The position numbers and the translations under genes were made by a program. The notes below the pieces were generated by a model. It had not been told where the DNA came from and searched no databases. It saw nothing but the letters and a program-made list of their open reading frames with translations. A DNA stretch of 63,850 nt, filler included, from Reclinomonas americana ATCC 50394 (lineage: Eukaryota), in assembly GCA_048213135.1 (NCBI GenBank). It is 19 parts of 19 records of this genome, joined end to end, with 100 filler letters (N's around TTAATTAATTAA, not from the genome) between each part and the next. Parts side by side here need not be neighbours in the genome. Positions count along the whole stretch, not along the records: positions 26,190 to 29,127 come from AFZH01022362.1; positions 29,228 to 30,611 come from AFZH01022363.1; positions 30,712 to 32,528 come from AFZH01022364.1; positions 32,629 to 33,965 come from AFZH01022365.1; positions 34,066 to 40,775 come from AFZH01022366.1; positions 40,876 to 43,138 come from AFZH01022367.1; positions 43,239 to 48,136 come from AFZH01022368.1; 12 more parts are not named here. One strand, written 5' to 3'. Shown here piece after piece: positions 26,190 to 46,953 of this stretch (within the stretch, counting starts at the first letter, position 1; each line of letters opens with the position of its first letter).

Positions 26190-26971
26190 CTGGAAACTTT
26201 TTCTGTCTCGCCATCACCCCCGACAGTCTGCACGTGGTGAGCGGAAGTGGTGGCGATTGTGTGCTGGTGCGGTCGCTGGCGAGTGGGAAAGAGGTGCGTC
26301 GATTGGAGGGGCACACTGCCTCTGTGATGTCAATTGCTGTTACTTTCGACGGGCAGTACGTGGTGAGTGGGAGTTTTGACCAGACAGTGCGCGTGTGGTC
26401 GCTCGCGAGTGGCGAGGAAATGCGACGGATGGAGGGACACACTGACATGGTGGGGTCTGTTGCTGTCTCACCCGATGGTCTGTTTGTGGTGAGTGGCAGC
26501 TATGATCGCACAGTGCGCGTGTGGTCGCTGAAGAGCGGAGATGAGGCGCGCCGGTTGGAGGGTCACACTGGGTGGGTGCGAGCAGTTGCTGTCACACCCG
26601 ATGGTCAGTTCGTTGTCAGCGGGAGCAATGACGACACTGTGCGTATCTGGTCACTGGCGAGTGGCAAAGAGGTGCGACGTCTGGCAGGCGACATTGGTTT
26701 TGTAATGTCTGTGGCTGTCGCTCCCGACGGGCAGCACATTGTTTGTGGTGGCGTGGACGTGCATGTGTGGTCCACACCTTGCGGCCTCGCCAGGTTTGAG
26801 GTGGACGCTGCACGCTCGGCAATGCTCGCCGTGCAGCAGCTGCAAGCGGAGGAGAGCGGTGAGGAAGCGGATCGCCGCTGCCTGCCAGAGCAAGTGCTGC
26901 GGTGCTTTATATTGGAGGAGGCCAGTATGTTGCTCTTCCGCTGCGGCGCGGATCCCCTGCTGCACCTGTGA
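26190..26971 (+). CDS. WD40-repeat protein, plus array copy 1 (5'-truncated by gap)
   Basis: GH..V.S.A..PDG..VVSGS.D.TVRVWS repeats plus the tail DRRCLPEQVLRCFILEEA..FRC. Confidence 0.95.
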
Positions 26972-27113
26972 GGTCTTTGGGGGGGAGTAATGAAGTGTTG
27001 TTGGAGAAGAAGGCGGGGTTGAAACGTCGAGACAGTCCCACTCTCCTCTACAACTTCGTTCATTCGTCTCACACGCAAGCACACCCTCTCATCCCCTCCC
27101 CCCCCCCCCCCCA

Positions 27114-28205
27114 ATGTCTTTCGCTCATCCCTCAGTACTCATCTGTAGAACTGTGCGTGGACACACTGCATGTGTGACGTCAGTTGCCGTCACTCCCGAC
27201 GGTCAGCATCTCGTGAGTGGTAGCTGTGACAGGACAGTGTGTGTGTGGTCACTGGTGAGTGGAAGGGAGGTGCGACAACTGGAGGGACACACGCGCGCGG
27301 TGCATTCTGTCATCGTCACTCCCGACGGCCAGTACATTGTGAGTGGGAGTGTCTTCGGAAAAATTCTAGTGTCGTCACTGGAGAGTGGCGACGAGCGACA
27401 GATGGATTTCGCTGGGGATGAGTGTTGTCTCGCCATCACCCCCGACAGTCTGCATGTGGTGAGCGGAAACCGTGGCGATTGTGTGCTGATGCGGTCGCTG
27501 GCGAGTGGGAAAGTAGTGCGTCAATTGGAGGGACACACTGCCTCGGTAAAGTCAGTTGCTGTTTCACCCGATGGCAAGCACGTGGTGAGTGGCAGTGAAG
27601 ACCAGACAGTGCGAGTGTGGTCACTCGCGAGTGGCGAGGAAATGCGGCGGATGGAAGGGCACAATGCCTCGGTGATGTCTGTTGCTGTCTCACCCGATGG
27701 TCTGCATGTGGTAAGTGGCAGCTATGATCGCACAGTGCGCGTGTGGTCGTTGTCGAATGGTGAAGAGGTGCGGCGAATGGATGGTCACACTGGACGGGTG
27801 CGAGCAGTTGCTGTCACTCCCGACAGTCAGTATGTCGTCAGCGGGAGCGAAGACAGGACTGCGCGAGTGTGGTCACTGGCGAGTGGCAAAGAGGTGCGAC
27901 GGCTGGAGGGATACACTGACTGGGTGCGATCAGTCACAGTTTCTCCCGATGGGCAGCACCTGGTGAGTGGCGGCGACGTGGACGTGCGAGTCTGGTCCAC
28001 ACCTTGCGGCCTTGCTCAGTGCGAGGAAGATGCCGCTCGGTCGGCCATGCTCGCCGTGCAGCAGCTGCAGCGAAAGAGAGCGGAGGAGAGCGGCGTGGAA
28101 GAAGATCGCCGATGTTTGGTGGAGATGGTGCTGCGGTGCTTCGTTGTGGAGGATGCAGAGGCGTCATTCTTCCGCTGCCGCGCGAGTCCCCTGCTGCACC
28201 TGTGA
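27114..28205 (+). CDS. 7-bladed WD40 protein, plus array copy 2 (363 aa, intronless)
   Basis: Starts MSFAHPSVLICRT; seven WD repeats; tail DRRCLVEMVLRCFVVEDAE..FRC. Confidence 0.97.
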   Translation: MSFAHPSVLICRTVRGHTACVTSVAVTPDGQHLVSGSCDRTVCVWSLVSGREVRQLEGHTRAVHSVIVTPDGQYIVSGSVFGKILVSSLESGDERQMDFAGDECCLAITPDSLHVVSGNRGDCVLMRSLASGKVVRQLEGHTASVKSVAVSPDGKHVVSGSEDQTVRVWSLASGEEMRRMEGHNASVMSVAVSPDGLHVVSGSYDRTVRVWSLSNGEEVRRMDGHTGRVRAVAVTPDSQYVVSGSEDRTARVWSLASGKEVRRLEGYTDWVRSVTVSPDGQHLVSGGDVDVRVWSTPCGLAQCEEDAARSAMLAVQQLQRKRAEESGVEEDRRCLVEMVLRCFVVEDAEASFFRCRASPLLHL

Positions 28206-28331
28206 GGCCTTTGGGGGGAAGTAATGAAGTGTTGTTATAGAGAAGAAGGCGGGGTTGCAACGTCGAGACGGTCCCATGATCACTCGTTCATCCATCTTCT
28301 CGCACGCATACACACCCCCTCATCCTTCCAA

Positions 28332-29589
28332 ATGTCTTTTGCTCATCCCTCAGTACTCTTCTGTAGAACCCTGCGCGGTCACAGGCGCACGGTGCATTCT
28401 GTCGCCATCACTCCCGACGGCCAACAAATCGTCAGTGGAAGCAATGACAAGACAGTGCGTGTGTGGTCGCTGGCGAGCGGCGAAGAAGTGCGTCGTCTGG
28501 AGGGACACACACGCGGGGTGTGCTCCGTCGTCGTCACTCCCGACGGCCAGCACATTGTGAGCGGAGGTGACGACAAGACAGTGCGAGTGTGGTCAGTGGC
28601 GAGTGGCAAAGAGGTGCGACAGATTGCTTTCACTGCGGACTTGTGCTGTCTCGCCATCGCCCCCGACAGCCTGCACGTGGTGAGCGGAAGTGGTGACGAC
28701 TGTGTGCGGCTGTGGTCACTGGCGAGTGGAAAATGTGTTCGACGGTTGAAGGGACACACGAACTGGGTTCTGTGCGTGGCTGTCACACCCGATGGTCAGT
28801 ACGTGGTGAGTGGGAGTGATGACTGCACAGTGCGAGTGTGGTCTCTGGCCACTGGCAAGGAAATGCGACGGATGGAGGGGCACACTGCCTCGGTGGTGTC
28901 TGTGACTGTCTCACCCGATGGTCTTTACGTGGTGAGTGGCAGCGCTGATTACACAATGCGCGTGTGGTCGTTGTCGAGTGGTGAAGAGATGCGACGGTTG
29001 AAGGGTCATGCTGACTGGGTGCGATCTGTCGCCGTCACTCCCGATGGTCAGTTCCTCGTCAGCGGGAGCGACGACAAGACAGTGCGTGTGTGGTCGCTGG
29101 CGAGTGGCGAAGAGGTGCGACGTCTGANNNNNNNNNNNNNNNNNNNNNNNNNNNNNNNNNNNNNNNNNNNNTTAATTAATTAANNNNNNNNNNNNNNNNN
29201 NNNNNNNNNNNNNNNNNNNNNNNNNNNGACAGTGTTCGTCTTCTCTTCCCTCTCAAGTGAACTCGAGCGGGCAACAAGTGCGGCGATTGAAAGGTCATGC
29301 GGATGTGGTGCAGTCGGTCACCGTCAGTCCCGACGGGTCGCTCTTGGTGTCGGGGAACTGGGACGGGTCAGTGCAGGTGTGGTATACGCCGTGTGAGCAC
29401 GCGCGTCGAGAACTCCGCCTGGCGCGAATGGCGTGGGGGGCCGTGCGGGAGCTGATGGAGGACGAGAAGGAAGAAGACGAGGAGGATGATTCGCGCTGCT
29501 TGCCAGAGATGGTGTTGCGGTGTTTCCTTGTCGAGGATGCTGCCGTCGTTCTCCACCGGTGCTTTGCGAATCCCGACATGCACTTGTGA
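28332..29589 (+). CDS. WD40 protein, plus array copy 3 (interrupted by gap 29128-29227; the part after the gap may be a fourth copy)
   Basis: Starts MSFAHPSVLFCRT at 28332; after the gap, the last blade and the tail DSRCLPEMVLRCFLVEDAA. Confidence 0.9.
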
Positions 29590-29597
29590 TTGGTGCT

Positions 29598-31700
29598 CTA
29601 CATACAATACAGACACGTTGCTTTTACAATCATTGCTTCAGTCTCTTCAAAATGTTGCGAATATCTTCTTGCGGGCCGCCACTCGTGACCGGCAACGAGT
29701 CCTTTGGCTGCGACTGCACCCACTGTCGCCCCTGCACAATAGACGACAGAAGAATGTCGACTGCGGGACGAGGGATGAGTGTTGGACTTTGCCTTTCCCT
29801 CCTCCACATCACACGCACCTTCCATGTCGACCTGGTTCACTTCCTTGGTCAGCAACGCGAGCCGCTCCGACAGCTTCTTCAACGTCGGAATTACAGTCGT
29901 GCGCAGCTCCTCGCCCTGCCCCTCCAGCTGCGCGAGAGGATGAGAAGTGACGCGCAGCTGCGCAATCGACCACCACCAGCAAGACAAACCTCTGCTCGCA
30001 CGCTGGAGAACCCGTAGTCTTCCTCGGTGCGTTTCTGTGTGCCATGCATAAGCGACAGCACAGAGCCGCGCAACTGGTCCTCCGATGTCTCGGCCATCTG
30101 TGAGGGGGAGATTTTTTCAATCAGCGCACGCAAAGCACTCAGCATAAGTCGCCGCACGAGCACGCAACATGGCGCAGCGAGTCCATCTTGGTGCGGTTCT
30201 CCCGGAAGCCCGCCATGGCGTGCCCGGCGGCGAAGGCCACCTTGACAGCGTGCGCGCGCACATCCTTTTGCATGTTGGTGTACCGCTCCATAAGCTCGGT
30301 GCGCGGCTTCAGCATCCAGTCGTGCACCAGCCTCATGTAGTCGACCTTGATCTGCGGCGGCTCCACCACTACCGAGCTCTGCCGGGCGGCGGCGTGCGGT
30401 CGACCCGCTTGCTGGCGCCGCTTGCGCAGGCTGGCGACAATGGCGGAGGGGTCGGGGATGGGAATGGTTTTGATGGCGGCGCTGAGCGTGGTGATGCGCT
30501 CGGGGGTCCAGCGCAGTTCCTCTTCCATGTTCTGCGGAGGGGGGAAGGGGGGAAAAGGAGAACAGTGGGGTGAGGGAGGAGGGCGAGGAAGAGGATGGGG
30601 GAGAGGATGGGNNNNNNNNNNNNNNNNNNNNNNNNNNNNNNNNNNNNNNNNNNNNTTAATTAATTAANNNNNNNNNNNNNNNNNNNNNNNNNNNNNNNNN
30701 NNNNNNNNNNNGAAGAGAAGGGGGAAGAGAGGGGGAAGAGGAAGGGAGGAGAGAAGGGGAAGGGCGAGGAAGAGAGGTCAGGGCAACGGAAAAGGAAGAG
30801 GGAGAGAAAGGAAACGAGAAAGTCGAGCAAAAAGGGAAAGAAAGTGGAAGATTGTCGACAGTGCAAGACTGAGGGCGAGAACAAAAAAAAGATTCGAGAG
30901 GGAGGCGACGAGAAGATGACACCTGCAGACAACCAGGCGAGGGATGTGGACAGTTCGGTGAGATAAGAGCGACTGAGCATGAGGTTAAGTGAGAGAGTGG
31001 GAAATCATGAAAGAAAAGTCATCTCAATAAGTTCGACCCTCTCCCTGGTCACGCACATCCAACGACTCCAGCATGGACTCTAGTCTCTGATCATGCCACT
31101 TGAGCAGCTCCATCGCAGTGGTGACCAGCGAGCTGTGCGACAGACCCAGCACCGGTGCCGCCTCCGAATCCTCCGATCCACCGTTGTTGCTGCTGTTGTT
31201 GCGACGACGCGACGCCGCACGACTGCCGACGGCCTGCTCGTGATGGTGCACCACCACCAGCTGCGTGAGGCCAGCCACCTGCAGCTCCTGAGCCAGAATC
31301 TGATATTCACACAGCTTTTCCGGCTTGCCAATGCGTGACGCCAGATTGTTGTAGCACACAAAGCTGGGGCGCACACGCTGCAGCTGTCGCATGGCGGCGA
31401 CGGCATTGTCGACTGTCAGCGCTGTGACGTGAGCCAGCGCACTCTTCATGGAGGCGGGGGCCACTGAGCCGCGCAGCTCCACCTCAATCACATGCGCTGT
31501 GAGCGGCGAGGCGACAGACGGTGCCAGGCGCCAGTGCGGGGCGGATGTCTCGATTTTCATCGCCCATGGACTCTCCTCTGTGCTCGAAAAGGTGGGTGTG
31601 GGGGAGCAGGAGGGGAAGGGATAAGGGGAAGAGACCTTCGTTGACGTTGAGTAGTTGCACGGGCGCTTCCACAATGGTCTCAATGTCGGCCTCGAGGTCG
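29598..31700 (-). CDS. Multi-exon hypothetical helical protein spanning gap 30612-30711
   Basis: Same-strand exons 31024-31580, 30139-30528, 29891-30163 and 29820-29960 with pyrimidine-rich introns. Boundaries approximate. Confidence 0.45.
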
Positions 31701-32122
31701 CCGAGTGGGTCGATTCTGGATGTGGGGATAGGAAGGGAGGAAGGGGGACGGAGGAAGATCTTTCAGAACTCGGAAAGACAGGAAGATGCAAAGGGTGGAG
31801 GAGAGAACGTCAATAAGAGAGAGAAAGGGGAGAGAGTAGAAAGTGAATCATTGCAAGGCAAAGAGAAGAGAGAGAAGAGAGAGAGGAGAAAGAGAGTGAG
31901 GAGAAGTAAATGTGTCTTTCTGAATCTCCACTCACGCAACTCATCACTCGCCACCACCACACACGCACACCACACAACCACCAAACACACAAACCACCCC
32001 ACTTTTCTCCTCATTCACTCCAAAAAAAAACAAACACAGAGGCGTAACGGTCACGAAATTTCGTGGCCAACCAACCACCAACTCTCACTCACTCCACTCA
32101 CTCCAAAGCACAAGAAGAATCG

Positions 32123-32438
32123 ATGAGCGAGGCAGGAGGAAGCACGCGCGCTGCCGTGGCCAACGCCAGTGACGTGTTACAGCAATTGGCCACGGCAATG
32201 CAGTTCTTACAACAACAACAACAACAGCAACAAGGAGGAAGTCGATTGATGGAGTCTTCTTCGTCGTCAGCGGCAATGACGACTGCGGCTGCGGCGTTGG
32301 CGTTGGTGGCGGAGGCCGGGGATGAGTTTGCGGCGGAGGAGTATATGTTGAGTAGAGGAAAAGGGGAGGAAAAGGGGGGTAGATGGGGATGAGAATGGGG
32401 CGTTGTTCCGAAGCACGTGCCGGTTATGTTTTGTGTGT

Positions 32439-32504
<66 letters not shown>

Positions 32505-33872
32505 GTGTGTGTGTGTGTGTGTGTGTGTNNNNNNNNNNNNNNNNNNNNNNNNNNNNNNNNNNNNNNNNNNNNTTAATTAATTAANNNNNNNNNNNNNNNN
32601 NNNNNNNNNNNNNNNNNNNNNNNNNNNNTTTGCGCATTCGTCTGTCCTCCTCATTGGCAGCCTTTCTGAGCACCTTGTTCGCTTTCTCTTGACGACGCTG
32701 CGCGTGAATGTGGAACATGCTGTCCGTTCACACCTGTGTCTTCTTCGTCTTGATTGCGTCTTATTTTTGTTCATTTATCCTTTTTGTGGACGAGGTCTCC
32801 ATCCCTGTGCGGTGCTCACGTGTCCATCTGTCCTTGTTGCAACTTTCTGCGTGCATCTTCACGTCTTGCTGTGCGTGCCTTTATCCACCCTATGATTGTA
32901 TTTCCCGTGCTTGCAGCACGCGTGTGTGGACGAGATCTCCATCCCTGTGCGGTGCTCACGTGTCCGTCAGTCCTTGTTGTAACTTTCTGCGTGCATCTTC
33001 ACGTCTTGCTCTTGTCCACTCTGTAATTGCGTCCACCATGCTTGCTGCGCGCGTGTACGTGAACGACACCTCCATCTACTAGAGCCATCGTGCTCTTTGT
33101 CGATGCAAACGTGTTGACCCTTGCTGGGGTCCCTGGCTCATCTCCTCCTCTTCTGTGCTCGTTCTACATCGTGATTTGCGCATTTGTCTGTCCTATTTCC
33201 TCGCTATCTACCCCTTTTTCGCTCACCTCCTTCTCCACAGACACGCCACGCCGCCGAATTGCAGGCCTACTTCAACAAACTGCAACTGCAAATGTCGCGC
33301 CCGAAACCCTCCTCGGAGCTCCTCAACATGCGGCGCATCGAAGAGGCACTGGCCAAGCAGAAAAAGTACTCGGAGGCCGCCGACATGAAGACAAAGGCGG
33401 AGGCACTGGAGAAGCTAGAGATCGAGGGGCACGAACAGGAGCGTGCGGAGCGCATCACCAAGTTGACGAGAAGAATGGTGGCCCGTCAAAAACTCGGTTT
33501 GTCGATGCGAACGTGTCGATCCTTGCTGGGGGTCCCTGGCTCATCTTCTCTCGGTTTTGTGCTCTCGCAGAGTTGGTGGCCGTGGATCAGCGCATTCAAA
33601 GTGGACGAGCTGAGCAGGAGAAGTTCCGACAGCAAGACATGCAGCGGTTAGCACGGCGCTACCACAACATCAAGCAGGGTCTGGTGGCGGCGCAGAATAT
33701 TGAGCGGGCACGAACGGATGCGTTTTTGGCGAAGCATCATCGGCGGTTGGATGAGCAGATGCCGGGGGCAGTGTCGGGTGAGTAACAGCAAGAGAGAGGG
33801 AGGGAGGGAAGGCGGGTGAGGGAAAGGGGAGGGCGAGAGTCCTTGGCGTTGATGGCGATAGGAGAGAGAGAA

Positions 33873-33917
<45 letters not shown>

Positions 33918-35514
33918 CGACGAGGAAGAACGTAGAGACGGAGAGAGCGAGAAGAACGAGAGAAGNNNNNNNNNNNNNNNNNNNNNNNNNNNNNNNNNNN
34001 NNNNNNNNNTTAATTAATTAANNNNNNNNNNNNNNNNNNNNNNNNNNNNNNNNNNNNNNNNNNNNAGAGAGAGAGCGAGAGAACGAGCGAGCGAGGCGGC
34101 AGTTTGGCGAAGCGACGATTGTGACACAGCCTTCATCCTGCACGAGGCAGGGAACAGCACAAAACTTGAGAGGCGAGAGAACGAGCGAGTGAGACGGCAG
34201 AATTGCGAAGCGACAATTGTCACAGAGCCTTCAAGGCACGGAACAGCACAAATTTGAGAGGCGAGAGAGAGAGAGAGATTGTATGAGAGTGAGCGAAAAA
34301 GACGGCGGACAGCACGATTTAGATCGCGTGCTCTGAAAGCCAAGTGTGTTTTGGTTTTTTAGACGAGTGAGGCAAACAGACAGATGAAGATTGCATTCAC
34401 GAGAGACGCATGTGTGGGTCTGCACGTCGTTTCATCAGAAAGCACTTAGATCGGCGGAGTTTCGATGGCGGAAAATGCGGGAGAAAGAGTTCATGAATCA
34501 GACTGGCGCATGTCGCAAGGATGCTTGAGAAGGCAGTGCATTAGATCCCAGTTTCTTTTCTCCCCTTTCCGCTCCTCTCTAACCGTTCTCCACGGTCTGT
34601 CTTCCTCCTCTTCTCATCTCTCCTTCCTTCTCTTCTCCTCCTTCTGCTCATTCTCTTCATTTCCCCTCCTTTCTTTCCCCCCCCCCCAGCCTCCTTCGAC
34701 CCCGCCTCCACGGCATCCGCCGTCGCTTCGGCCACTGGCGGAAAATCGGGCGGTGGCGGCCCCGGCAGCCTCTTCCCGGCTCTCGCTACACCCTCCGGTT
34801 CCACACCTGCTCCGTCAGTGACAGTAACCACGGCCGACAACTCGGCCGGCGCCTCACCGAATCCCTTCCAGCGAGCACAGAGTGTGGAAGCGCTGCTCAT
34901 TGCCGCCGCGGCTCAGGCGGCCGCCGGTGGCGATAGCACGTTACTGCCGTTGAGCAGCGCACCTCAAGGCAGCGGCGCCTCGGCGGCTCGCTCGGGCTCC
35001 TCTTTTTCGGCTCTCTCGGCCGTGTACGGGGCCGACGCCGCCAATGGTCCGCGCACCACGTCGACCACACCGCACTCGACCAAACGAAATCGCGGCGCTG
35101 CGGATATGCCAGCTGTCTCGGCGGCAACGGCGGCGGCCACGGGCAGTGGGCGCAATTCGACTGATGCGCGAGGCAAGGCCACGACGCCGACTGTTGCGTG
35201 CGACGGGCGAATGGAGAGAGGAAAGGGGTGATGAAGATGCTGACGGTAGGTGCGCAGGTCCCCAAGCTGTCGATGAAGGAAGCAGTTGCTGTGTACGGCA
35301 AGTCATCATCATCGTCATCCAGTGCGCGCCGGGCATATGCGGCAAGGTGAGATTACTGTCCGACTGGGGGAAAGTGTACTGTCAGTGTTTATTTCTCACT
35401 CTCGTCGTACGCTGTTGTAGAACTGCGTCGGCCAGGGAACCGTCTTCGGGCGACGTTGTACCTGGTCCGCCTCCAGCCGCCTCATCACGGCCTGCACCAA
35501 AGACGGCACGGTAG
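32123..35514 (+). CDS. Conserved protist coiled-coil protein (multi-exon, spans two gaps)
   Basis: ATG 32123 (MSEAGGSTR..). Exon RPKPSSELLNMRRIEEALAKQKKYSEAADMKTKAEALE resembles a coiled-coil family I recall from ciliates and flagellates. Assignment of the 3' exons at 34690-35514 to this gene is inferred. Confidence 0.5.
32785..33010. repeat. Intronic direct duplication (~85-bp core, ~140-bp period)
   Basis: TGTGGACGAG.TCTCCATCCCTGTGCGGTGCTCACGTGTCC...TCTTCACGTCTTGCT at ~32785 and ~32925. Confidence 0.85.
34077..34270. repeat. ~95-bp imperfect tandem duplication
   Basis: GAGAGAACGAGCGAG..GGCAG..GCGAAGCGAC.ATTGT..AGCCTTCA..GGAACAGCACAAA.TTGAGAGGC occurs twice. Confidence 0.75.
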
Positions 35515-36894: not shown

Positions 36895-37965
36895 TCACAA
36901 TCGCAAGCAGCGGAACCGAGTTGCCTCCGCCTCTTCAACAATGAAGCACCTCAGCACAATCTCCACCAGACAGCGGGGATCAACCTCCTCCCCTTCCTTC
37001 TCCTTCTCCTCCTGCATCTCCTGCACGGCAAGCAACGCCGAGCGAGCGGCTTCCACTTCCCACCGGGCAAGACCGAGCGGCGTGGACCACACACGCACCG
37101 CCTTGTCCACACTCCCACTGACAATATGCTGCCCGTCGAAACTCACGGCAATAGACCTTACAGCATCCGTATGTCCATCCAGCTGTCGCACTTGCTCTCC
37201 ACTTGCCAGCGACCACACACGCACCGTACCATCAAAGCTGCTACTCACAACGTGTTCGCCATCGGGAGTCACAGCCACAGACAGCACCATGTCAGTGTGC
37301 CCCACAAGTCGTCGCACTTCGTCCCCGCTCGCCAGTGACCACAGCCGCACTGTGTAGTCTCCACTCCCGCTCACCACGTGCTGACCGTCGGCAGTGACGA
37401 CGAGAGACACCAGAGGTGCAGCGTGTCCCTCCATCCGTCGCACCTCTTCGCCACTGGCTAGTGACCACATACGCACAGTGCAGTCGCGGCTCCCACTCAC
37501 AACGTGCTGGCCGTCGGGAGTGACGGCGACACAGTTCACCACACCGGCGTGTCCCTCCAACCGGCGCACCTTTTCTCCACTCGCCAGTGACCACACTATC
37601 ATCTCATAACCTCCACACACAATGTGCTGGCCATTGGGAGTGATGGCAACAGAGTGCACCAAATCAGTGTGCCCCCTCAACCATCGCACCCCCTGTCCAC
37701 TCGCCAGTGACCACACACGCACAGTCTTATCCCAGCTACCACTGAAAACGTGCCTGCCGTCGGGAGTGACAGCGAGAGATGCTACAACTCCAGTGTGGCC
37801 CTCCAATCGTCGCACTTGCTCGCCACTCTTTAACGACCACACGCGCACATTGCGGTCCTCACTCCCGCTCACCACGTGCAGACCGTCGGGAGTGATGGCG
37901 ACTGACCACAGCTCGGTGTGTCCACGCAACGTCTTGCAGTGGAGAGTGGAGGTGGCGAGTGACAT
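36895..37965 (-). CDS. 7-bladed WD40 protein, minus array (356 aa)
   Basis: Same architecture as neighbours, intronless. Confidence 0.97.
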   Translation of the reverse strand: MSLATSTLHCKTLRGHTELWSVAITPDGLHVVSGSEDRNVRVWSLKSGEQVRRLEGHTGVVASLAVTPDGRHVFSGSWDKTVRVWSLASGQGVRWLRGHTDLVHSVAITPNGQHIVCGGYEMIVWSLASGEKVRRLEGHAGVVNCVAVTPDGQHVVSGSRDCTVRMWSLASGEEVRRMEGHAAPLVSLVVTADGQHVVSGSGDYTVRLWSLASGDEVRRLVGHTDMVLSVAVTPDGEHVVSSSFDGTVRVWSLASGEQVRQLDGHTDAVRSIAVSFDGQHIVSGSVDKAVRVWSTPLGLARWEVEAARSALLAVQEMQEEKEKEGEEVDPRCLVEIVLRCFIVEEAEATRFRCLRL

Positions 37966-38130
37966 GGTTGGCGCGCGAGGGAGAGGGAGAGTGTCTGGAG
38001 GACGACAAGGAGCGGGACATTAAGTTTGTCGTTCTCTGCTTTCGTGCCGAGAGCAAGGTGCGTGGTGTTTCATTGCATATGTGCAGAAGGAAAGGAACGG
38101 AAGAGGATACGCCGGTCGACGTCGGAATCA

Positions 38131-39207
38131 CTATCGCAAGCAACGGAATCGAGTTGCCTCCGCCTCTTCAACAATGAAGCACCTCAGCACAATCTCCACC
38201 AGACAGCGGGGATCAACCTCCACTCCCTCTTTCTCCTCTCCCTCTTGCATCTGCTGCACGGCAAGCAACGCCGAGCGAGCGGCTTCCACCTCCCATCGGG
38301 CGGGACCTAGCGGCGTCGACCACACACGCACGTCCGGATCCATGTCACAGCAAACAACACACTGGCTGTCGGGAGTGACAGCGACAGAGCGCACCATTCC
38401 TTTGTGGTTTTCCAACCGGCGCACCTCTTCGCCACTGACCAGCGACCACACACGCACAGTGCGATCAAGGCTGCCACTCACAACGTGTTCGCCATCGGGA
38501 GATACAGCCACAGACAGCACCAGCTCAGTGTGTCCCACAAGTCGTCGCACTTCGTCTCCGCTCGCCAGTGACCACAGCTGCAATGCGCAGCGACCACTCC
38601 CGCTCACCACGTGGTGACTGTCGGCAGTGACGGCGACAGACCGCACCGTATCGGTGTGTCCCTCCATCAGTCGCACTTCCTCCCCACTTGCCAGCGACCA
38701 CACGCGCACCGTGCGATCCTGGCTCCCACTAACAACGCGCTGGCCGTCGGGAGTGATGGCGACACAATTCACAGCACCGGCGTGTCCCTCAAACCGTCGA
38801 ACTTCTTCTCCGGTCGCCAGTGACCACTCACGAGCTGTGTGGTCAAAACCGCCACTCACCACATGCAGACCATCGGGAGTGACGGCAACGGACTGTACCC
38901 AGTCAGTGTGTCCCTCCACCCGTCGCACCTCCTCTCCACTCGCCAGCGACCAAACACGTATGGTGTTGTCCCAGCTGCCACTCACAACGTGTTGACCGTC
39001 GGGGGTGATGGCAACAGATGCCACAACGTCAGTGTGTCCCTCCAGCCGGCGTACTTCCTCGCCACTTGCCAGCGACCACACGCGCACTGTGTGGTCCTCA
39101 CTTCCACTCACCACATGGCGACCATCGGGAGTGATGGCGACCGACCACACTCCTTCGGTGTGTCCACGCATTGTCTTGCAGTGGAGAGTGGAGGTGGCGA
39201 GTGACAT
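38131..39207 (-). CDS. 7-bladed WD40 protein, minus array (358 aa)
   Basis: Same architecture as neighbours, intronless. Confidence 0.97.
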   Translation of the reverse strand: MSLATSTLHCKTMRGHTEGVWSVAITPDGRHVVSGSEDHTVRVWSLASGEEVRRLEGHTDVVASVAITPDGQHVVSGSWDNTIRVWSLASGEEVRRVEGHTDWVQSVAVTPDGLHVVSGGFDHTAREWSLATGEEVRRFEGHAGAVNCVAITPDGQRVVSGSQDRTVRVWSLASGEEVRLMEGHTDTVRSVAVTADSHHVVSGSGRCALQLWSLASGDEVRRLVGHTELVLSVAVSPDGEHVVSGSLDRTVRVWSLVSGEEVRRLENHKGMVRSVAVTPDSQCVVCCDMDPDVRVWSTPLGPARWEVEAARSALLAVQQMQEGEEKEGVEVDPRCLVEIVLRCFIVEEAEATRFRCLR

Positions 39208-39395: not shown

Positions 39396-40475
39396 TCACA
39401 ATTGCAGGCAACGGAACCTGGCTACCTCCGCCTCCTCAACAATGAAGCACCGCAGCACCGTCTCGACCAGACAGCGAGGATCTACCTCCTCCCCCTCATT
39501 CTCCTCTCCCTCTTGCATCTGCTGCACGGCAAGCAGCGCCGAGCGAGCGGCTTCCACCTCCCACCCGGCGAGACCAAGTGGCGTGGACCACACACGCAAG
39601 GAGCAATCCCTGCTTCCGGTCACTATGTGCTGTCCACTGGAAGCAACAGCGACTGCGCGCACCACCTGTGTGTGCCCTCGCAGGCGGTGCACCTCCTCGC
39701 CACTTGCCAGCGACCACACACGCACTGTCTTGTCGTTGCTCCCGCTCACCGCATGTTCACCGTCGGGGGAGATGGCGACGGCATGCACTGCACTGGTGTG
39801 TCCCTCCAACCGGCGCACCTCTCGCCCACTCGCCAGCGACCACACTCGTATCGACTTGTCGCGACTTGCACTGACCACATGCTGACCGTCGGGCGTGACA
39901 GCGACTGACCACACCGCATCGGTGTGACCCTCCAACCGCTGCACCTCCTCTCCACTTGCCAGCGACCACACGCGCACCGTGCGATCCTCACTTCCACTCA
40001 CCACATGAAGATCATCGGGAGTGACGGTGACACTGTTCACAGCACGGGAGTGTCCCTCGAGTCGTCCCTCCTCGTCTCCTGTGCCCAATGACCACACGCG
40101 AACTGCTGTTTCCTCGCCCGCGCTCACAACACGCTCTCCATTGGCGGTGACGGCGACAGAGAACACCGATACAGAGTGCATTCCCCACCGACACACTTTG
40201 TCTCCACTCGCCAGTGACCACACTCGCACTGTTCCGTCGTCGCCCCCACTCACAACATGCCGACCGTCGCGGGAGACTGCCACGCACGCCACCCATCCCT
40301 TGTGGCCCTCCAACCGCCGCACTAGTCGTCCACTGCGCAGGCACCAAACACGCACTTTCTTATCTGCGCTCCCGCTCACGATGTGCAGGTTGTCGAGAGT
40401 GAGGGCGACGCAGGTGACAGCACCTCCGTGGCCGTCAATGCGCCTGCAGTGGAGAGTGGAGGTGGCAAGTGACAT
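39396..40475 (-). CDS. 7-bladed WD40 protein, minus array (359 aa; divergent first three blades)
   Basis: ATG of MSLATSTLHCRR at 40475; conserved tail. Confidence 0.95.
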   Translation of the reverse strand: MSLATSTLHCRRIDGHGGAVTCVALTLDNLHIVSGSADKKVRVWCLRSGRLVRRLEGHKGWVACVAVSRDGRHVVSGGDDGTVRVWSLASGDKVCRWGMHSVSVFSVAVTANGERVVSAGEETAVRVWSLGTGDEEGRLEGHSRAVNSVTVTPDDLHVVSGSEDRTVRVWSLASGEEVQRLEGHTDAVWSVAVTPDGQHVVSASRDKSIRVWSLASGREVRRLEGHTSAVHAVAISPDGEHAVSGSNDKTVRVWSLASGEEVHRLRGHTQVVRAVAVASSGQHIVTGSRDCSLRVWSTPLGLAGWEVEAARSALLAVQQMQEGEENEGEEVDPRCLVETVLRCFIVEEAEVARFRCLQL

Positions 40476-40650: not shown

Positions 40651-41079
40651 TCATTCTTGCAAGCAACGGAAGCAAGTTGCCTCTGCATCCTCGACGATGA
40701 AGCACCGCAGCACAATCTCCACCAAGCAGCGGCGATCTCCCTCCTCGCCGTCGCCCTCCTCTCCCTCCTGCATCTNNNNNNNNNNNNNNNNNNNNNNNNN
40801 NNNNNNNNNNNNNNNNNNNTTAATTAATTAANNNNNNNNNNNNNNNNNNNNNNNNNNNNNNNNNNNNNNNNNNNNAGTGACGGCGACACATGCCACCAAC
40901 TCAGTGTGTCCCTCCAGCAGTCGCACCTCCTCGCCACTCGTCAATGACCACACGCGTAGTTTGCAGTCCTGCCCCCCGCTCACAGCGTGCAGACCGTTGG
41001 GAGTGATGGCGACTGCCCACACCCCCTCAGTGTATCCACGCATTGCCTTGTTGTGGAGAGGGGAGGTGGCGAGTGACAT
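40651..41079 (-). CDS. WD40 protein, minus array (N- and C-terminal parts flanking gap 40776-40875)
   Basis: MSLATSPLHNK start at 41079; tail DRRCLVEIVLRCFIVEDAEATCFRCLQE ends at TGA 40651. Confidence 0.85.
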
Positions 41080-41265
41080 GGTTGGCGCACACGGGAGAAA
41101 GAGGGAAGTTTGTGTTTGCTTGAAGGACGACAAGGAGCAGGACTTGCAATGCGTTATGCTGAGACATCAACAAGGAGCGAGACTCTTCATTGCACACATA
41201 TGTACGAGGGGAAAAAAGAAAAGCAAGATAACGATACGGGTGAAAGACAATCGCCTTCAGAATCA

Positions 41266-42342
41266 CTATTGCAAGCAACGGAAACGAGCTGCCTCCGCAT
41301 CCTCGACGATGAAGCACCGCAGCACAATCTCAACCAAGCAGCGGCGATCAACCTCCTCGCCCTCCATCTTCTCCTCTACTTGCAGCTCCTGCACGGCGAG
41401 CATGGCCCGATGCGCGCAGTCAACTTCCCATCGAGCGAGACCAAGCGACGTGGACCACACGCCGACTGTTTTGTCGTAACTCCCACTGGCGATGTGTTGC
41501 CCGTCGAGCGCGACGGCGATAGAGTACACCCCATCGCTGTGGCCCTCCAGCCGTCGAGCTTCTTCGCCACTGGCCAGCGACCACACACGCATCGTCATGT
41601 CACGACTCCCGCTCACGAGGTACTGACCATCGGGCGTGACGGTGACAGACCACACCTCGTCTGTGTGTCCAACATATCGTCGCACCTCCTGCCCACTCGC
41701 CAGGGACCACAGCCGCACCGTGTGGTCTCCACTGCCACTGACCACATGCTGCCCGTCAAAAGTCACGGTTACGGACCACACCCAATCAGTGTGGCCCTTC
41801 AACCAGTGCACCGCCTCGCCACTCGCCAGTGACCACACTCGCACTGTGTTATCCCAGCTCCCGCTCACAACGTGCTGACCGTCGGGAGTGACAGCGACAG
41901 ACAACACAGGTGCAGTGTGTCCTTCCAACCGTCTCACCTCCTCGCCACTCTCCAGCGACCACACGCGCACAGTCTCATCAGAACTCCCGCTCACCACGTG
42001 CAGCCCATCGGGAGTGACGGCAACGGACCACACAGCAGCAGTATGTCCTCTCGGCAGCCTTACTTCCTCCCCACTCACCAATGACCACACGTGCAATGTC
42101 TCATCGACTCCGCCACACACCACATGGCGTCCATCAGGGGTGATGGCAACACAGAGTACCTCTCTGAAGCGTCCGCCAAATCGTCGCACCTCCTCGCCAG
42201 TCGCCAGGGTGAACAACAGCACTGTGCTGTCATGACTCCCACTCACCACGTGCTGACCATCGGGAGTGATGGCGACAGAGCTCACAGATGAGGTATGTCT
42301 GCGCACTGCCTTGCAGTGGAGAGTGGAGGTGGCGAGTGACAT
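41266..42342 (-). CDS. 7-bladed WD40 protein, minus array (358 aa)
   Basis: Same architecture as neighbours, intronless. Confidence 0.97.
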   Translation of the reverse strand: MSLATSTLHCKAVRRHTSSVSSVAITPDGQHVVSGSHDSTVLLFTLATGEEVRRFGGRFREVLCVAITPDGRHVVCGGVDETLHVWSLVSGEEVRLPRGHTAAVWSVAVTPDGLHVVSGSSDETVRVWSLESGEEVRRLEGHTAPVLSVAVTPDGQHVVSGSWDNTVRVWSLASGEAVHWLKGHTDWVWSVTVTFDGQHVVSGSGDHTVRLWSLASGQEVRRYVGHTDEVWSVTVTPDGQYLVSGSRDMTMRVWSLASGEEARRLEGHSDGVYSIAVALDGQHIASGSYDKTVGVWSTSLGLARWEVDCAHRAMLAVQELQVEEKMEGEEVDRRCLVEIVLRCFIVEDAEAARFRCLQ

Positions 42343-42522
42343 GGTGGGCGCGCAAGAGACGGAGAGAAGAGGACGTACTGTAGGAGTGGGACATGAAGTC
42401 CGTCATTCATTCTGCTGCGTACTCCACCCAAGAATACGGTACTGAGACGGCACTGTGTATATACACAAGAGGAAAAGGGAAGAACAACACCGTAGGGAGA
42501 AAGCCGATCGATTTTGGAATCA

Positions 42523-43298
42523 CTATTGCAAGCAGCGGAAGCGAGTTGTCTCCGCCTCTTCGACGATGAAGCACCGCAGCACCATCTCTGGCAAGCAACG
42601 GGGATCGACCTCCTCTCCCTCCTCCTTCTCCTCCTCCTCCTGCATCTCCTGCACGGCAAGCATGGCCGAGCGAGCGGCTTCCACCTCCCATCGGGCGAGA
42701 CCGAGCGGCGTGGACCACACTCGCACAACCGCACCAAACGCACCACCCACGATGTGTTGTCCATCGGGACTCACGGCGACAGAGCGCACACTGCCCGCAT
42801 CAATCTCCAACCGCTTCACTTCTTCGCCACTGGCCAGCGACCACACACGCACCGAACCGTCATAGCCACCACTTACCACATGCTGCCCATCGGGAGTGAC
42901 AACCACAGACAACACGTCGTCGGTGTGCCCTTCAAATCGCCGCGTTCCCTCGCCACCTGGCAGGGACCACACGTGCACCGTGTTGTCTGCACTCCCGCTC
43001 ACCACATGCTGGCCATCGGGAGTGACGGCGACGGACCACACCCACTTGGTGTGCTCCTCCAATTGCCGCACCTGTTCTCCACTCACGAGCGACCACACGC
43101 GCACCGTACTATCATTACTGCTACTCACAACGTGCTGCNNNNNNNNNNNNNNNNNNNNNNNNNNNNNNNNNNNNNNNNNNNNTTAATTAATTAANNNNNN
43201 NNNNNNNNNNNNNNNNNNNNNNNNNNNNNNNNNNNNNNCACTCCTCCGGTGTGTCCACGCAGCGTCCTGCAGTGGAGAGTGGAGGTGGCGAGTGACAT
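42523..43298 (-). CDS. WD40 protein, minus array (interrupted by gap 43139-43238)
   Basis: MSLATSTLHCRTLRGH start at 43298; C-terminal blades and tail at 42523-43138. Confidence 0.88.
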
Positions 43299-43442
43299 TG
43301 TGGGCGCGCAAGGGTAGGGGTAGGGAAGTGTGTAAGGACGAATGGGACATTCTCTGCTTTTCGAGCCGAGAACAACGTGCGTGGTTTCATTACAAACACA
43401 GAAAAGGGACGTACGGCAGCGTAGGGAGAAAGACAGTCGACT

Positions 43443-44502
43443 TCAGATTAACCAGCAGCGGAAGTGAGTTGCCTCTGCATCTTCGACAATGAAGCACCGC
43501 AGCACCATCTCCGGCAAGCAACGGTAATCCTCCTTCTCCTCCCCCTCCTGCATCTCCTGCACGGCGAGCATGGCCGACCGAGCGGCCTCCACCTCCCACC
43601 CGGCGAGACCAAGCGGCGTGGACCACACGCGCACTGTGTTGTCCGGGCGAGCACAGCCACTCACGATACGCTGTCACGGCGATAGACCACACCCCTTTGG
43701 TGTGCTCCTCCAGCCGTCGCACTTGCTCTCCACTCGCCAGTGACCACACACACACCGTTTTGTCACGACTGCCACTCACAATGTGTTCACCATTGTGAGT
43801 GACAGCCACAGACATCACCTCCTTCTCGTGACCAACGAATCGTCGCACCTCTTGCCCACTCGACAGGGACCGCACTCGGATCTCCCTGTAATCACCGCTC
43901 ACCACATGCTGGCCATCGGGAGTGACAGCGACAGTGAATACCCACACATAGTAACCGTCCAGTCGTTGCACTTCTTCTCCACTCGCCAGTGACCACACCC
44001 TCACAGTGCCGTCATAACTGCTACTCACAGCACACTGGCTATCGGGTGTGACGGCAACAGACATCACCGCCGCAGCGTGTCCCTCCAATCGTCGCACTTC
44101 TTCTCCACTCACCAGTGACCACACACGCACTGTCATGTCAGCACCCCCACTCACAGCGTACTGACAATCCGGAGTGACGGCGACAGACCACACCCAGCCC
44201 GTGTGTCCCTCCAGTTGTCGCACTTCCTCGCCACTCGCCAGTGACCACACACGCACGGTCTTGTCGGCACTCCCACTCACCACATGCAGGCCGTCGGGAG
44301 TGACGGCAACAGACATTACAGTGTCAGTGTGTCCCTCCAGTTGTCGCACTTGCTCACCACTTGTCAGTGACCACACGCGCACGGTGTGGTCTTCACTTGC
44401 GCTCACCGCATGGCGACCGTCGGGAGTGATGGCGACCGACCACACTCCTTCGGTGTGTCCGCGCATTGTCTTGCAGTGGAGAGTTGAGTTGGCGAGTGAC
44501 AT
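43443..44502 (-). pseudogene. Frameshifted WD40 array copy
   Basis: Blade 7 reads GCC GTG A|CAG CGT ATC GTG AGT GGC, lacking ~11 nt of the usual ..GT CCC GAT GGG near 43673. The tail continues intact in another frame (43443-43664). Confidence 0.75.
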
Positions 44503-44643
44503 TGGTGTGGCGTGCAAGGGAGAGGGAAAGAGCGTGTGATGAAGGAGGACATGCGTGACCATCGGGACTTCGGAGACATCAAGAAGCTTTTCATTGCATG
44601 TGCAGAAGGAAAGGGAAGTTTCAAAAGACGGTCGACCTCGGGA

Positions 44644-45714
44644 TCACGAGCAACGGAACTGAGTTGCCTCTGCATCTTCGACGATGAAGCACCGCAGTAC
44701 AATCTCTGGCAAGCAACGGCGATCGACCTCCTCTTCCTCTCCCACCTGCATCTCCTGCACGGCTAGCATAGCCGAGCGAGCGGCCTCCACTTCCCATCGA
44801 GCGAGACCAAGCGGCGTGGACCACACGCGCACCGTCTTGTCCAGACTCCCACTGATGATGTGCTGCCCATCGGGACTCACGGCAACACACATCACACCAT
44901 AAGTATGTCCCTCCAGCCGTCGCACCTCCTCGCCGCTGGCCAGGGACCACAGCCGTACTGTGTGTTCTGAACTCCCACTCACGATGTGCTGTCCATCGGG
45001 CGTGACGGTGACGGACCACACCTCATTGGAGTGCCCAACAAATCGTCGCACCTCCTCTCCACTTTCCAGCGACCACACTCGCATCGTTCCGTCATAGCCC
45101 CCACCAACCACATGCTGGCCATCGGGAGTGACAGCGACAGACCGCACCCAGCCAGTGTGTCTCTCCAATCGCCGCACTTCTTCTCCACGCGCCAGTGACC
45201 ACACTCTCACAGTGCAGTCCTGGCCTGCGAGCACAACGTGCTGACCGTCGGGAGTGATAACGACAGACATTACCGATCTGTCTGGTCCCACCATCCGTCG
45301 CACCACCTCGCCACTTGCCAGGGACCACACACACACTGTGTCGTCTTCAATCCCACTCACCACATGCACACCATCGGGAGTGACAGCAACGGACCGCAAT
45401 TGCACCCATACAGTGTGCCCCTGCATCTGCCGCACCACCTCCCCACTCGCCAGTGACCACACACGCACAGTGCTGTCCCAGCTGGCACTCACGATATGAT
45501 GGCCGTCGGGAGTGACAGCAACGCGTGTCACCATGTCAGTGTGTCCCTCCAGTTGTCGCACTTGCTCACCACTTGTCAGTGACCACACGCGCACGGTGTG
45601 GTCTTCACTTGCGCTCACCGCATGGCGACCATCGGGCGTAATGGCGACCGACCACACTCCTTCGGTGTGTCCGCGCATTGTCTTGCAGTGGAGAGTGGAG
45701 GTGGCGAGTGACAT
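44644..45714 (-). CDS. 7-bladed WD40 protein, minus array (356 aa)
   Basis: ATG at 45714; tail VDRRCLPEIVLRCFIVEDAEATQFRCS. Confidence 0.96.
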   Translation of the reverse strand: MSLATSTLHCKTMRGHTEGVWSVAITPDGRHAVSASEDHTVRVWSLTSGEQVRQLEGHTDMVTRVAVTPDGHHIVSASWDSTVRVWSLASGEVVRQMQGHTVWVQLRSVAVTPDGVHVVSGIEDDTVCVWSLASGEVVRRMVGPDRSVMSVVITPDGQHVVLAGQDCTVRVWSLARGEEVRRLERHTGWVRSVAVTPDGQHVVGGGYDGTMRVWSLESGEEVRRFVGHSNEVWSVTVTPDGQHIVSGSSEHTVRLWSLASGEEVRRLEGHTYGVMCVAVSPDGQHIISGSLDKTVRVWSTPLGLARWEVEAARSAMLAVQEMQVGEEEEVDRRCLPEIVLRCFIVEDAEATQFRCS

Positions 45715-45864
45715 TGGTGTGGCGTGCAAGGGAGAGGGAAAGAGCGTGTGATGAAGGAGGACATGCGTGACCATCGATATCGGGACTTCTGAGACATCAA
45801 GAAGAAGCTTTCAATTGCATGTACAGAAGGAAAGGGAAGTTTCAAAAGATGGTCGACCTCGGGA

Positions 45865-46953
45865 TCACGAGCAACGGAACTGAGTTGCCTCTGCATCTTC
45901 GACGATGAAGCACCGCAGTACAATCTCTGGCAAGCAGCGGCGATCGACCTCCTCTCTCTCCTTCTCCTCTCCCTCCTCCTCCTCTCCCTCCTGCATCTCC
46001 TGCACGGCGAGCATGGCCGAGCGAGCGACTTCCACCTCCCACTGCGCGAGACTGAAGGACGTGGACCACACTCGCACCGTCATGTCTAGACTCCCACTGA
46101 CGACGTGTTGCCCATCGGGACTCACGGCAGCGCACAGCATCCCACGAGTGTGCTTCTCCAGCCGTCGCACCTCCTCGCCACTCGCCAGCGACCACACACG
46201 CACCGTCCCGTCATGACCTCCACTCACAATGTGCTGACCTGCGGGCGTTGCAGTCACAGACAACACGCCGCCGCTGTGCCCAACGACTTGTCGCACTTCT
46301 TCTCCACTCGCGAGAGACCACACACGCACGGTGCTGTCTTCACTACCACTCACCACATGCTGGCCATCGGGAGTGACGGCGACCGACCACACCCACCTGG
46401 TGTGACCGCTCAACCGGCACAATTCCTCGCCAAGCGCCACGGACCACACACGCACTGTCATGTCCAAACTCCCGCTTACAACGTGCTGGACATCGCGGGT
46501 GACGGCAACAGACAGCACCGCCGCAATGTGTCCCAACAGTCGTCGCACCTCCTCGCCACTCGCCAGGGACCACACTCGCACTGTGGTGTCTCCACTCCCG
46601 CTCAGCACATGCAGACCATCGGGAGTGACGGCAATGGACCACACAGCAGCAGTGTGTCCTTTCAACAGTTGCACTTCCTCCCCGCTCTCCAGTGACCACA
46701 CTCGCACAGTGCTGTCCCAGCCGGCACTCACGATATGATGGCCGTCGGGAGTGACGGCAAGAGATGTCACCTGTGCATTGTGCCCCTCCAGCAGTCGCAC
46801 CTCCTCACCACTCGCCAGTGACCACACGCGCACTGTTTTGTCTCCACTCCCACTCACAGCATACCTACCGTCGGGGGTGACAGCAACAGACATGATCTGC
46901 GCGGTGTGCCCGCGCATCGTCTTGCAGTGGAGAGTGGAGGTGGCGAGTGACAT
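45865..46953 (-). CDS. 7-bladed WD40 protein, first gene of minus array (362 aa)
   Basis: ATG at 46953, directly downstream of a (CT)n tract; conserved tail. Confidence 0.96.
   Translation of the reverse strand: MSLATSTLHCKTMRGHTAQIMSVAVTPDGRYAVSGSGDKTVRVWSLASGEEVRLLEGHNAQVTSLAVTPDGHHIVSAGWDSTVRVWSLESGEEVQLLKGHTAAVWSIAVTPDGLHVLSGSGDTTVRVWSLASGEEVRRLLGHIAAVLSVAVTRDVQHVVSGSLDMTVRVWSVALGEELCRLSGHTRWVWSVAVTPDGQHVVSGSEDSTVRVWSLASGEEVRQVVGHSGGVLSVTATPAGQHIVSGGHDGTVRVWSLASGEEVRRLEKHTRGMLCAAVSPDGQHVVSGSLDMTVRVWSTSFSLAQWEVEVARSAMLAVQEMQEGEEEEGEEKEREEVDRRCLPEIVLRCFIVEDAEATQFRCS

What the first reader, a model, noticed from the sequence alone, without database searches (positions are those of the whole stretch)
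26190..46953. 13-14 intronless, stand-alone 7-blade WD40 genes in two convergent tandem arrays
Seen: 3-4 plus-strand copies (MSFAHPSVLxCRT subfamily, ending LLHL/MHL) and 10 minus-strand copies (MSLATSTLHCK subfamily) with ~1.2-kb period. They point towards each other with two unrelated intron-rich genes between them. Known: WD40 repeats of high internal identity are the sensor domains of fungal HNWD/NWD NLRs (het-e, het-d, het-r) and of bacterial STAND proteins. Here there is no NACHT/NB-ARC domain. Inference: a lineage-specific, rapidly evolving recognition repertoire, possibly for defence.
Basis: partly seen in the sequence, partly recalled or inferred. Interest (0 to 1): 0.75.

Follow-up and report, generated by a model that had tools for sequence, protein, structure and literature searches.

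The report
Variable WD40 propeller genes, constant tail
A free-living flagellate carries hundreds of small genes for ring-shaped binding proteins whose gripping face changes fast while a shared, previously unknown tail stays fixed; they look like the sensor part of its own immune-type receptors reused as a stand-alone recognition library, but their targets and partner are unknown.

Summary
The tail has no Pfam or PDB match. The arrays are a local sample of a genome-wide family: 823 exact tail motifs in an assembly holding two haplotype-like sets. A Reclinomonas americana EST protein matches this genome 100%, but that copy has a premature stop. At least 135 NACHT-pentapeptide-WD40 NLR-like genes share the blade consensus and position-specific codons. 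Variation sits at blade positions 6, 7, 9, 25 and 27; 7, 9, 25 and 27 are the selected sites of fungal HNWD repeats. dN/dS is about 0.25 in the framework, 0.2 in the tail, and 0.6-2 on that face depending on method. These are not HNWD members: no NACHT, 58% rather than 85% internal identity, fixed blade number. Best reading: diversifying cytosolic binders that dock on one common partner through the tail, probably in biotic conflict. The convergent layout looks incidental. This scan noted the family before on many other pieces of this genome.

The parts
26190..26971 (+). P1: WD40-tail gene, 5' part lost in assembly gap
   Evidence: counterpart on C220 at 96-98%
27114..28205 (+). P2: intact 363-aa WD40x7 + tail gene; no direct counterpart found in the fetched part of C220
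28332..29127 (+). P3: WD40 gene, 3' part (tail) lost in assembly gap
   Evidence: counterpart on C220 at 96-98%
29228..29589 (+). P4: relic, last blade + tail only; start and six blades deleted relative to the intact C220 copy
29900..31700 (-). Intervening multi-exon gene, unrelated, approximate limits
   Evidence: single copy per haplotype set
32125..35300 (+). Intervening multi-exon gene (coiled-coil-like exons), unrelated, approximate limits
35653..36720 (-). M10: intact 355-aa WD40x7 + tail; the C219 counterpart is frameshifted
36895..37965 (-). M9: intact 356-aa WD40x7 + tail
38131..39207 (-). M8: intact 358-aa WD40x7 + tail (the copy modelled)
38131..38322 (-). Tail of M8 (residues 296-358): helix, acidic variable linker, helix; representative of all copies
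39396..40475 (-). M7: intact 359-aa WD40x7 + tail
40651..41079 (-). M6: start and tail present, middle in assembly gap 40776-40875
41266..42342 (-). M5: intact 358-aa WD40x7 + tail
42523..43298 (-). M4: start and 3' half present, interrupted by gap 43139-43238
43443..44502 (-). M3: frameshift in blade 7 near 43673 puts the tail out of frame (pseudogene or assembly error)
44644..45714 (-). M2: intact 356-aa WD40x7 + tail
45865..46953 (-). M1: intact 362-aa WD40x7 + tail

Best explanation
These genes are members of a very large jakobid family (about 400-600 per haploid set) of cytosolic 'variable face, constant tail' adaptors. Shown: each is one 7-blade WD40 propeller whose top-face residues (blade positions 6, 7, 9, 25, 27) evolve about four times faster than the framework, followed by a two-helix tail under strong purifying selection. 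The blades share ancestry with the WD40 sensor of the genome's own NACHT NLR-like genes. Copies are gained, lost and made mosaic by tandem duplication and unequal crossing-over. Inferred: each copy binds a different, changing protein ligand on its top face, most likely proteins of viruses or intracellular or ingested bacteria. The tail replaces the NACHT switch as output by docking every copy on one common host partner that disposes of or signals on the bound target. The identity of that partner is open.
For: Uniform build: 85 of 87 clean tail-bearing ORFs have exactly 7 blades; 75 of 162 tail ORFs were set aside for gaps, edges, short or partial matches. Entropy exceeds 3 bits only at blade positions 6, 7, 9, 25, 27; 7, 9, 25, 27 are the positively selected top-face sites of HET-E/D repeats (PMC1805685 section 10). 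On 125 unique genes, dN/dS is 0.24-0.25 in the framework and 0.20 in the tail; with the framework's synonymous rate it is about 2 at positions 7/9/25/27 (2dL 971 against 1) and 0.5-1.0 at control positions 18 and 5. The method returned 1.0 in 4 of 4 neutral simulations with up to 1000 conversion tracts and 2.0 when 2.0 was true. The variable sites avoid proline and are rich in W/Y/R. NLR blades have the same consensus and share position-specific codon choice (r=0.74, 0 of 2000 permutations); linker identity to the family is 0.63 for NLR blades against at most 0.53 among 57 outside proteins. Turnover: 14 of 65 gap-free copies are broken, the minus array is its own clade (13 of 13 tips, support 0.97), and the two haplotype sets differ in copy number and mosaic structure. 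No N-terminal hydrophobic stretch in 83 proteins.
Against: Positive selection depends on method: pairwise dN/dS on the top face is 0.64 (CI 0.41-0.91) in 15 pairs of at least 90% identity and 1.31 (1.02-1.65) in 13 pairs of 80-90%; with each class's own synonymous rate it is 0.94 for positions 7/9/25/27, not different from 1, and only position 27 is clearly above 1. Homogenised third positions could lower the framework's dS and inflate the shared-rate estimate; the simulation did not model that. No ligand, partner or phenotype is known. The only transcript evidence is one EST from a copy with a premature stop. Mosaic copies and frameshifts may partly be assembly errors in a gapped draft.
Confidence: 0.58

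Rival explanations
1. A specific form of the adaptor idea: the tail is a new cullin-adaptor box, so the family is a library of substrate receptors for a cullin-RING ubiquitin ligase, working like WSB (WD40-SOCS box) or like expanded F-box families.
For: Propeller plus short C-terminal two-helix constant module is the WSB layout (PMC3355856 passages). The Cul2-box pattern occurs in 60 of 125 tails against 15 in shuffles. The genome has an Elongin C-like gene and a Skp1-like gene.
Against: The BC-box pattern occurs in 2 of 125 tails (6.6 in shuffles) and the Cul5 box in 0 of 125. No SOCS or F-box Pfam match in 72 tails at E<=1. No SOCS-box match in G000. The proline of the Cul2-like pattern is valine in most copies. 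Skp1/Elongin C genes are not expanded (3 exon hits).
Confidence: 0.22
2. The proteins are partners or decoys of the genome's NLR-like receptors: detached sensors that hand ligands to NACHT helpers, or that soak up pathogen inhibitors aimed at the NLR propellers.
For: Same blade type and same variable positions as at least 135 NLR-like genes. Blades of the two families interleave in a tree (58 label changes on 296 tips).
Against: The NLRs lack the tail (no score in 19 of 19). The best blade identity across families is 0.865 nt against 0.97 among NLR genes, and label changes are fewer than in shuffles (58 against a mean of 99), so there is no sign of very recent exchange in the sample. A pure decoy would not need a tail under dN/dS 0.2. 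No NLR lies in this window.
Confidence: 0.12
3. A largely non-adaptive birth-and-death expansion: a bacterial-type propeller gene multiplies by unequal crossing-over, selection keeps the fold, and the exposed face merely drifts.
For: Top-face dN/dS is near or below 1 by two of three methods. About a fifth of copies are broken. The one EST is from a broken copy.
Against: Hundreds of copies keep the tail at dN/dS 0.2. Other exposed positions (linkers, bottom face) stay conserved while only the known binding positions vary. The variable sites are still constrained against proline, so an average of 1 implies some positive selection (inference).
Confidence: 0.13
4. The units are a selfish mobile element, or passengers of one.
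For: Intronless in an intron-rich genome and dispersed over very many contigs.
Against: A unit is only the ORF plus about 120-190 bp of spacer, with no transposase frame or poly-A visible. Neighbours are each other's closest relatives. No match among viral contigs or phages.
Confidence: 0.04

Closest known systems
HNWD/NWD NLRs of Podospora anserina (HET-D, HET-E, HET-R); PMC1805685, PMC4986451
   Same: Regular WD40 repeats with variation at positions 7, 9, 25, 27 on the top face; multigene family with pseudogenes and exchange between copies.
   Different: No HET or NACHT domain; one fixed 7-blade propeller rather than 2-15 polymorphic repeats; about 58% rather than about 85% internal identity; hundreds of genes rather than 10; a novel constant tail.
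NACHT-pentapeptide-WD40 NLR-like genes of the same genome (L124-L143; at least 135 motif hits)
   Same: Same blade consensus, same variable positions, shared position-specific codons, long intronless frames.
   Different: They have a HEPN-like head (lead only), NACHT and pentapeptide domains and roughly twice as many blades, and they lack the tail.
WSB1/WSB2 (WD40 + C-terminal SOCS box) and other Elongin BC substrate receptors; PMC3355856
   Same: Propeller followed by a short helical constant module; a Cul2-box-like pattern in about half of the tails.
   Different: No BC box or Cul5 box; no Pfam SOCS match; massive expansion with a hypervariable face.
Highly regular prokaryotic WD40 proteins (e.g. 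the Thermomonospora WD40 domain, PDB 5yzv; metagenomic hits P0016, P0017, P0126)
   Same: Best fold match (TM 0.97 to target, 41% identity); very similar blade cores.
   Different: None carries the tail; blade linkers differ (at most 0.53 identity).
P0002 and P0003 (unnamed Logan contigs)
   Same: Beta-propeller followed by the same tail (E 1e-10 and 7e-8; hhalign 97.9% for P0003).
   Different: Their propellers are degenerate and irregular; the P0003 tail is not encoded in G000 (matches about 40-61%), so the layout exists in at least one other organism.

Membership tests
HNWD/NWD fungal-type NLR | NACHT (STAND) domain in the same chain | tested here: not met
   ORFs begin 10-20 residues before blade 1 and end after the tail; only propeller families among the best 25 Pfam hits shown
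HNWD/NWD fungal-type NLR | High internal repeat conservation (about 85% amino acid; PMC4986451) | tested here: not met
   0.52-0.64 in the 8 window genes, mean 0.58 in 83 genes, highest gene 0.70
HNWD/NWD fungal-type NLR | Repeat-number polymorphism (PMC1805685 section 8) | tested here: not met
   85 of 87 clean ORFs have 7 blades
HNWD/NWD fungal-type NLR | Hypervariability at repeat positions 7, 9, 25, 27 | tested here: met
   Entropy 3.5-3.7 bits at these positions against mostly under 1.5 in the framework
HNWD/NWD fungal-type NLR | Positive selection at those positions | tested here: inconclusive
   About 2 with shared dS (checked by simulation); 0.94 with own dS; 0.64 and 1.31 pairwise
HNWD/NWD fungal-type NLR | Concerted evolution of repeats within and between genes | tested here: inconclusive
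   Blades are equally alike within genes, between genes and between positions (0.576/0.584/0.575); mosaic genes between haplotype sets; no within-gene homogenisation
SOCS/VHL-box substrate receptor (WSB type) | BC box (S,T,P)LxxxC/S/AxxxPhi (PMC3355856) | tested here: not met
   2 of 125 tails, 6.6 in shuffles; PF07525 finds nothing in G000
SOCS/VHL-box substrate receptor (WSB type) | Cul5 box or Cul2 box after the BC box | tested here: inconclusive
   Cul5 box 0 of 125; loose Cul2 pattern 60 of 125 against 15 in shuffles
SOCS/VHL-box substrate receptor (WSB type) | Physical binding to Elongin BC and a cullin | not testable with these tools
   Needs pull-down
F-box WD40 protein (FBXW) | F-box motif that binds Skp1 | tested here: not met
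   No F-box Pfam match in 72 tails at E<=1; the recalled LPxE start occurs in 1 of 125
Conserved housekeeping WD40 protein | Single-copy ortholog conserved across eukaryotes | tested here: not met
   Hundreds of paralogs; the best 120 outside hits are generic repeat proteins covering 65-91% of the query; the tail is found in only 3 credible outside proteins

The most novel reading that the evidence does not exclude
A single-celled jakobid has uncoupled the WD40 sensor of a bacterial-type NLR from its NACHT switch and joined it to a new constant 'box'. This created a germline library of about 500 variable intracellular receptors that capture viral or bacterial proteins and pass them, through one shared partner such as a cullin ligase, to destruction: an immune repertoire of variable-plus-constant design outside animals, plants and fungi.
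Probability: 0.25. Interest if true: 0.85.

Novelty: new variant of a known kind. Interest (0 to 1): 0.58.

Why it matters
Cell-autonomous immunity in free-living protists is poorly known. Here one deep-branching flagellate holds both a large NLR-like family and a several-fold larger stand-alone family built from the same blade, varying at the sites that set specificity in fungal allorecognition. Because all copies share one short orphan tail, a single pull-down could reveal the output pathway for hundreds of genes, which makes the question of how protists recognise intracellular invaders directly testable. If the face merely drifts, it remains a clear case of gene-family turnover.

Tried and rejected
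Tail identity: no Pfam family for 2 single tails and only scattered chance-level hits for 72 tails; no PDB sequence hit at E<=10; no hit in the word-indexed protein search, lengths 196-627 only; ESM Atlas top score 0.80, uninformative; Foldseek no hit at E<=0.001 and VIA best Z 6.7 among generic helical hairpins, which shows neither a new nor a known fold. P0004 (fungal ZinT repeats) was rejected as an acidic-composition match. No tail relatives in metagenome contigs, viral contigs or phages. Complex prediction of tail with the genome's Elongin C-like frame (which retains an in-frame intron) gave no verdict; it is not evidence either way. Expression: no RNA holder was listed, so no reads were laid. 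Origin of the NLR NACHT region: a single-protein scan of prokaryote genomes found no close relative, so horizontal transfer remains an inference. A first codon-model run with fixed nucleotide branch lengths was mis-scaled and discarded. The idea that 29228-29589 is an intron-containing ancestral copy was rejected: it is a deletion relic. The idea that long open frames (800-1800 aa) are tail fusions with other domains was rejected for those fetched and viewed: they run through N gaps (output partly cut). Literature: five searches listed no paper describing this family; the library lacks most subscription papers and no supplements were read.
Full report
OBSERVATION. Six-frame translation and motif scans give ten minus-strand starts, two visible plus-strand starts and 13 tail motifs. 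Counting a fourth plus-strand relic there are 14 units: 8 intact ORFs of 355-363 aa, 4 cut by assembly gaps, one frameshifted (M3) and one internally deleted (P4). Blades recur every 42 residues. AlphaFold2 on an 83-sequence alignment gives a 7-blade propeller (residues 9-297) followed by two helices (300-325 and 334-357), mean pLDDT 91, pTM 0.87.

GENOME CONTEXT. A tail search of G000 gave 1533 candidates, of which the 150 scored all had E<=2.1e-15. An exact 23-base degenerate motif of the tail occurs 823 times, control 0. That motif catches 89 of 125 intact genes in my sample, which extrapolates to roughly 1150 copies; the sample is biased towards query-like copies. G000 holds two haplotype-like sets: an intervening exon occurs twice, at 100% and 99%, and C219/C220 are syntenic with the window. 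That gives about 400-600 copies per haploid set. Among 162 tail-bearing ORFs in 48 sources, 87 were clean (start found, no gap, whole tail, at least 5 blades; two loci overlap) and 85 of those had 7 blades. Of 89 motif hits in 40 fetched stretches, 51 were intact, 14 broken, 16 gapped and 8 at edges. The window's minus array and its C219 counterpart form one clade (13 of 13 tips, support 0.97) with P2 as neighbour, so the arrays grew locally. The two sets differ: C219 has 11 tail motifs against 10, several genes are mosaics of neighbours, different copies are broken, and C220 has inverted copies inside the plus array. The convergent layout therefore looks incidental. Draft-assembly chimeras cannot be excluded.

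ORGANISM AND EXPRESSION. A profile of 72 tails against 1.84 billion representatives found 4 proteins. P0001 is labelled by its source as an EST-derived Reclinomonas americana protein and is 100% identical over 116 aa to G000:C5977, so the genome is R. americana or very near it; that this species is a free-living jakobid flagellate is recalled knowledge. That genomic copy has a stop in blade 6, so it shows transcription of the family, not a working protein. P0002 and P0003 are degenerate propellers with the same tail from unnamed contigs; the P0003 tail is not in G000. P0004 is a compositional false hit.

THE TAIL. Its helices are as constrained as the propeller core (dN/dS 0.20-0.29). Three residues are invariant in 83 sequences, and the linker between the helices is acidic and 3-17 residues long. 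It matches no Pfam family or PDB sequence, and its hairpin fold is too generic to assign. BC-box and Cul5-box patterns (PMC3355856, passages seen) are absent; a loose Cul2-box pattern is enriched, 60 of 125 against 15 in shuffles. There is no N-terminal hydrophobic stretch; the most hydrophobic windows are in the second tail helix and contain acidic residues. I read the proteins as cytosolic and the tail as a docking site (inference).

THE VARIABLE FACE. Entropy above 3 bits occurs only at blade positions 6, 7, 9, 25 and 27, in all seven blades apart from position 6 of blades 1 and 2. In Podospora HET-D/E repeats, positions 7, 9, 25 and 27, in the d-a loop and b-c turn on the top face, are under positive selection (PMC1805685: abstract, passages, sections 8 and 10 seen); I matched numbering by this geometry. 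Tree length per codon is 231-292 at these positions against 66 for framework and tail. Estimates of dN/dS differ by method: pairwise 0.64 (15 pairs at 90% or more) and 1.31 (13 pairs at 80-90%); ML with own synonymous rate 0.94, position 27 alone 3.9; ML with the framework's synonymous rate about 2. The last method was unbiased in 4 neutral simulations with gene conversion and recovered 2.0 in one positive control, but the simulation lacked the strong position-specific codon bias of the real data. Diversifying selection is probable, not proven. Internal identity (58%) falls short of the 85% HiC criterion (PMC4986451, passages seen).

LINK TO NLRs. G000 has 97 scored NACHT matches, mostly in long open frames, and 135 exact hits of an NLR-specific motif. 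Nineteen fetched ORFs show an unannotated head, NACHT, pentapeptide repeats and many WD40 blades (output partly cut, and 44); the head resembles HEPN clusters as a lead only. Their blade consensus equals that of the stand-alone family apart from one conservative change and the variable sites, with the same variable positions. NLR blades are as close to stand-alone blades as those are to each other (0.728 against 0.732), closer in the linker than any of 57 outside proteins, and they share position-specific synonymous codons (r=0.74, 0 of 2000 permutations). In the blade core alone, the best outside proteins are as close as the NLRs. The families share a nucleotide-level ancestor but show no very recent exchange in this sample. 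The NLRs lack the tail. The closest outside blades and fold are prokaryote-type regular WD40s, which suggests but does not show bacterial origin; similar transfer has been proposed for fungal NLR domains (PMC9815663, two passages seen). The direction of derivation, NLR to stand-alone or the reverse, was not tested.

MECHANISM. Shown: fixed single propeller, fast top face, slow tail, shared ancestry with NLR sensors, local tandem turnover. Inferred: each copy binds a different changing ligand and the tail couples all copies to one host partner (0.58). A cullin ligase is the most concrete candidate for that partner (0.22) but fails the BC-box and F-box tests. Partner or decoy of the NLRs (0.12), drift (0.13) and mobile element (0.04) are less likely. 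A defence role rests on analogy with HNWD repeats and on the NLR link, not on any experiment.

NOVELTY. The variable-face WD40 principle and the propeller-plus-box layout are each known. A several-hundred-member, NACHT-less, NLR-related family with an orphan tail in a jakobid was not found in five literature searches (listings only; subscription papers and supplements not covered). This scan has noted the family on many other pieces of the same genome (116 notes fit 'WD40'); those unchecked notes agree with my reading and did not set it. Verdict: real, new variant of a known kind, interest 0.58.

Noticed in passing
L124-L143 (G000, e.g. C4860, C6666, C56:37000-41500): Large family of long-ORF NACHT-pentapeptide-WD40 NLR-like genes (135 motif hits) with an unannotated head bearing an RxxxxH-type motif; ESM Atlas leads point to HEPN clusters.
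   Followed up: partly
G000 overall; C219:60001-107071 and C220:1-12000: The assembly holds two haplotype-like sets; C219/C220 mirror this window at about 88-99% identity. Genome-wide counts are therefore about double the haploid number.
   Followed up: yes
window 14601-17015 (-): An ORF with a weak Cas12f1-like/TnpB zinc-ribbon match (PF07282, E 0.003, below cut-off) next to another long orphan ORF; could be a Fanzor/TnpB-type transposon remnant.
   Followed up: no
window 5564-6956 (-): Intron-containing cyclin gene (Cyclin_N and Cyclin_C matches).
   Followed up: no
window 47234-47710: 187-bp tandem repeat, 2.6 copies at 90% match, just upstream of M1; similar sequence on C219.
   Followed up: no
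window about 49450-60100 (+): Very long intron-rich gene with repeated glycine-rich motifs recalling polymorphic outer-membrane-protein beta-helices (label recalled; the one exon scanned gave no Pfam match).
   Followed up: no
L121:1486-1872 (G000:C46): Divergent Elongin C-like gene with an in-frame 69-nt intron; one relative (P0127) lacks the inserted residues.
   Followed up: partly
L071 (G000:C5977): The family copy matched by the EST-derived protein has a premature stop in blade 6.
   Followed up: yes
window, 18 places: Contig joins are padded with two 44-base N runs around a 12-base all-frame stop spacer; these are assembly artefacts, not biology.
   Followed up: yes
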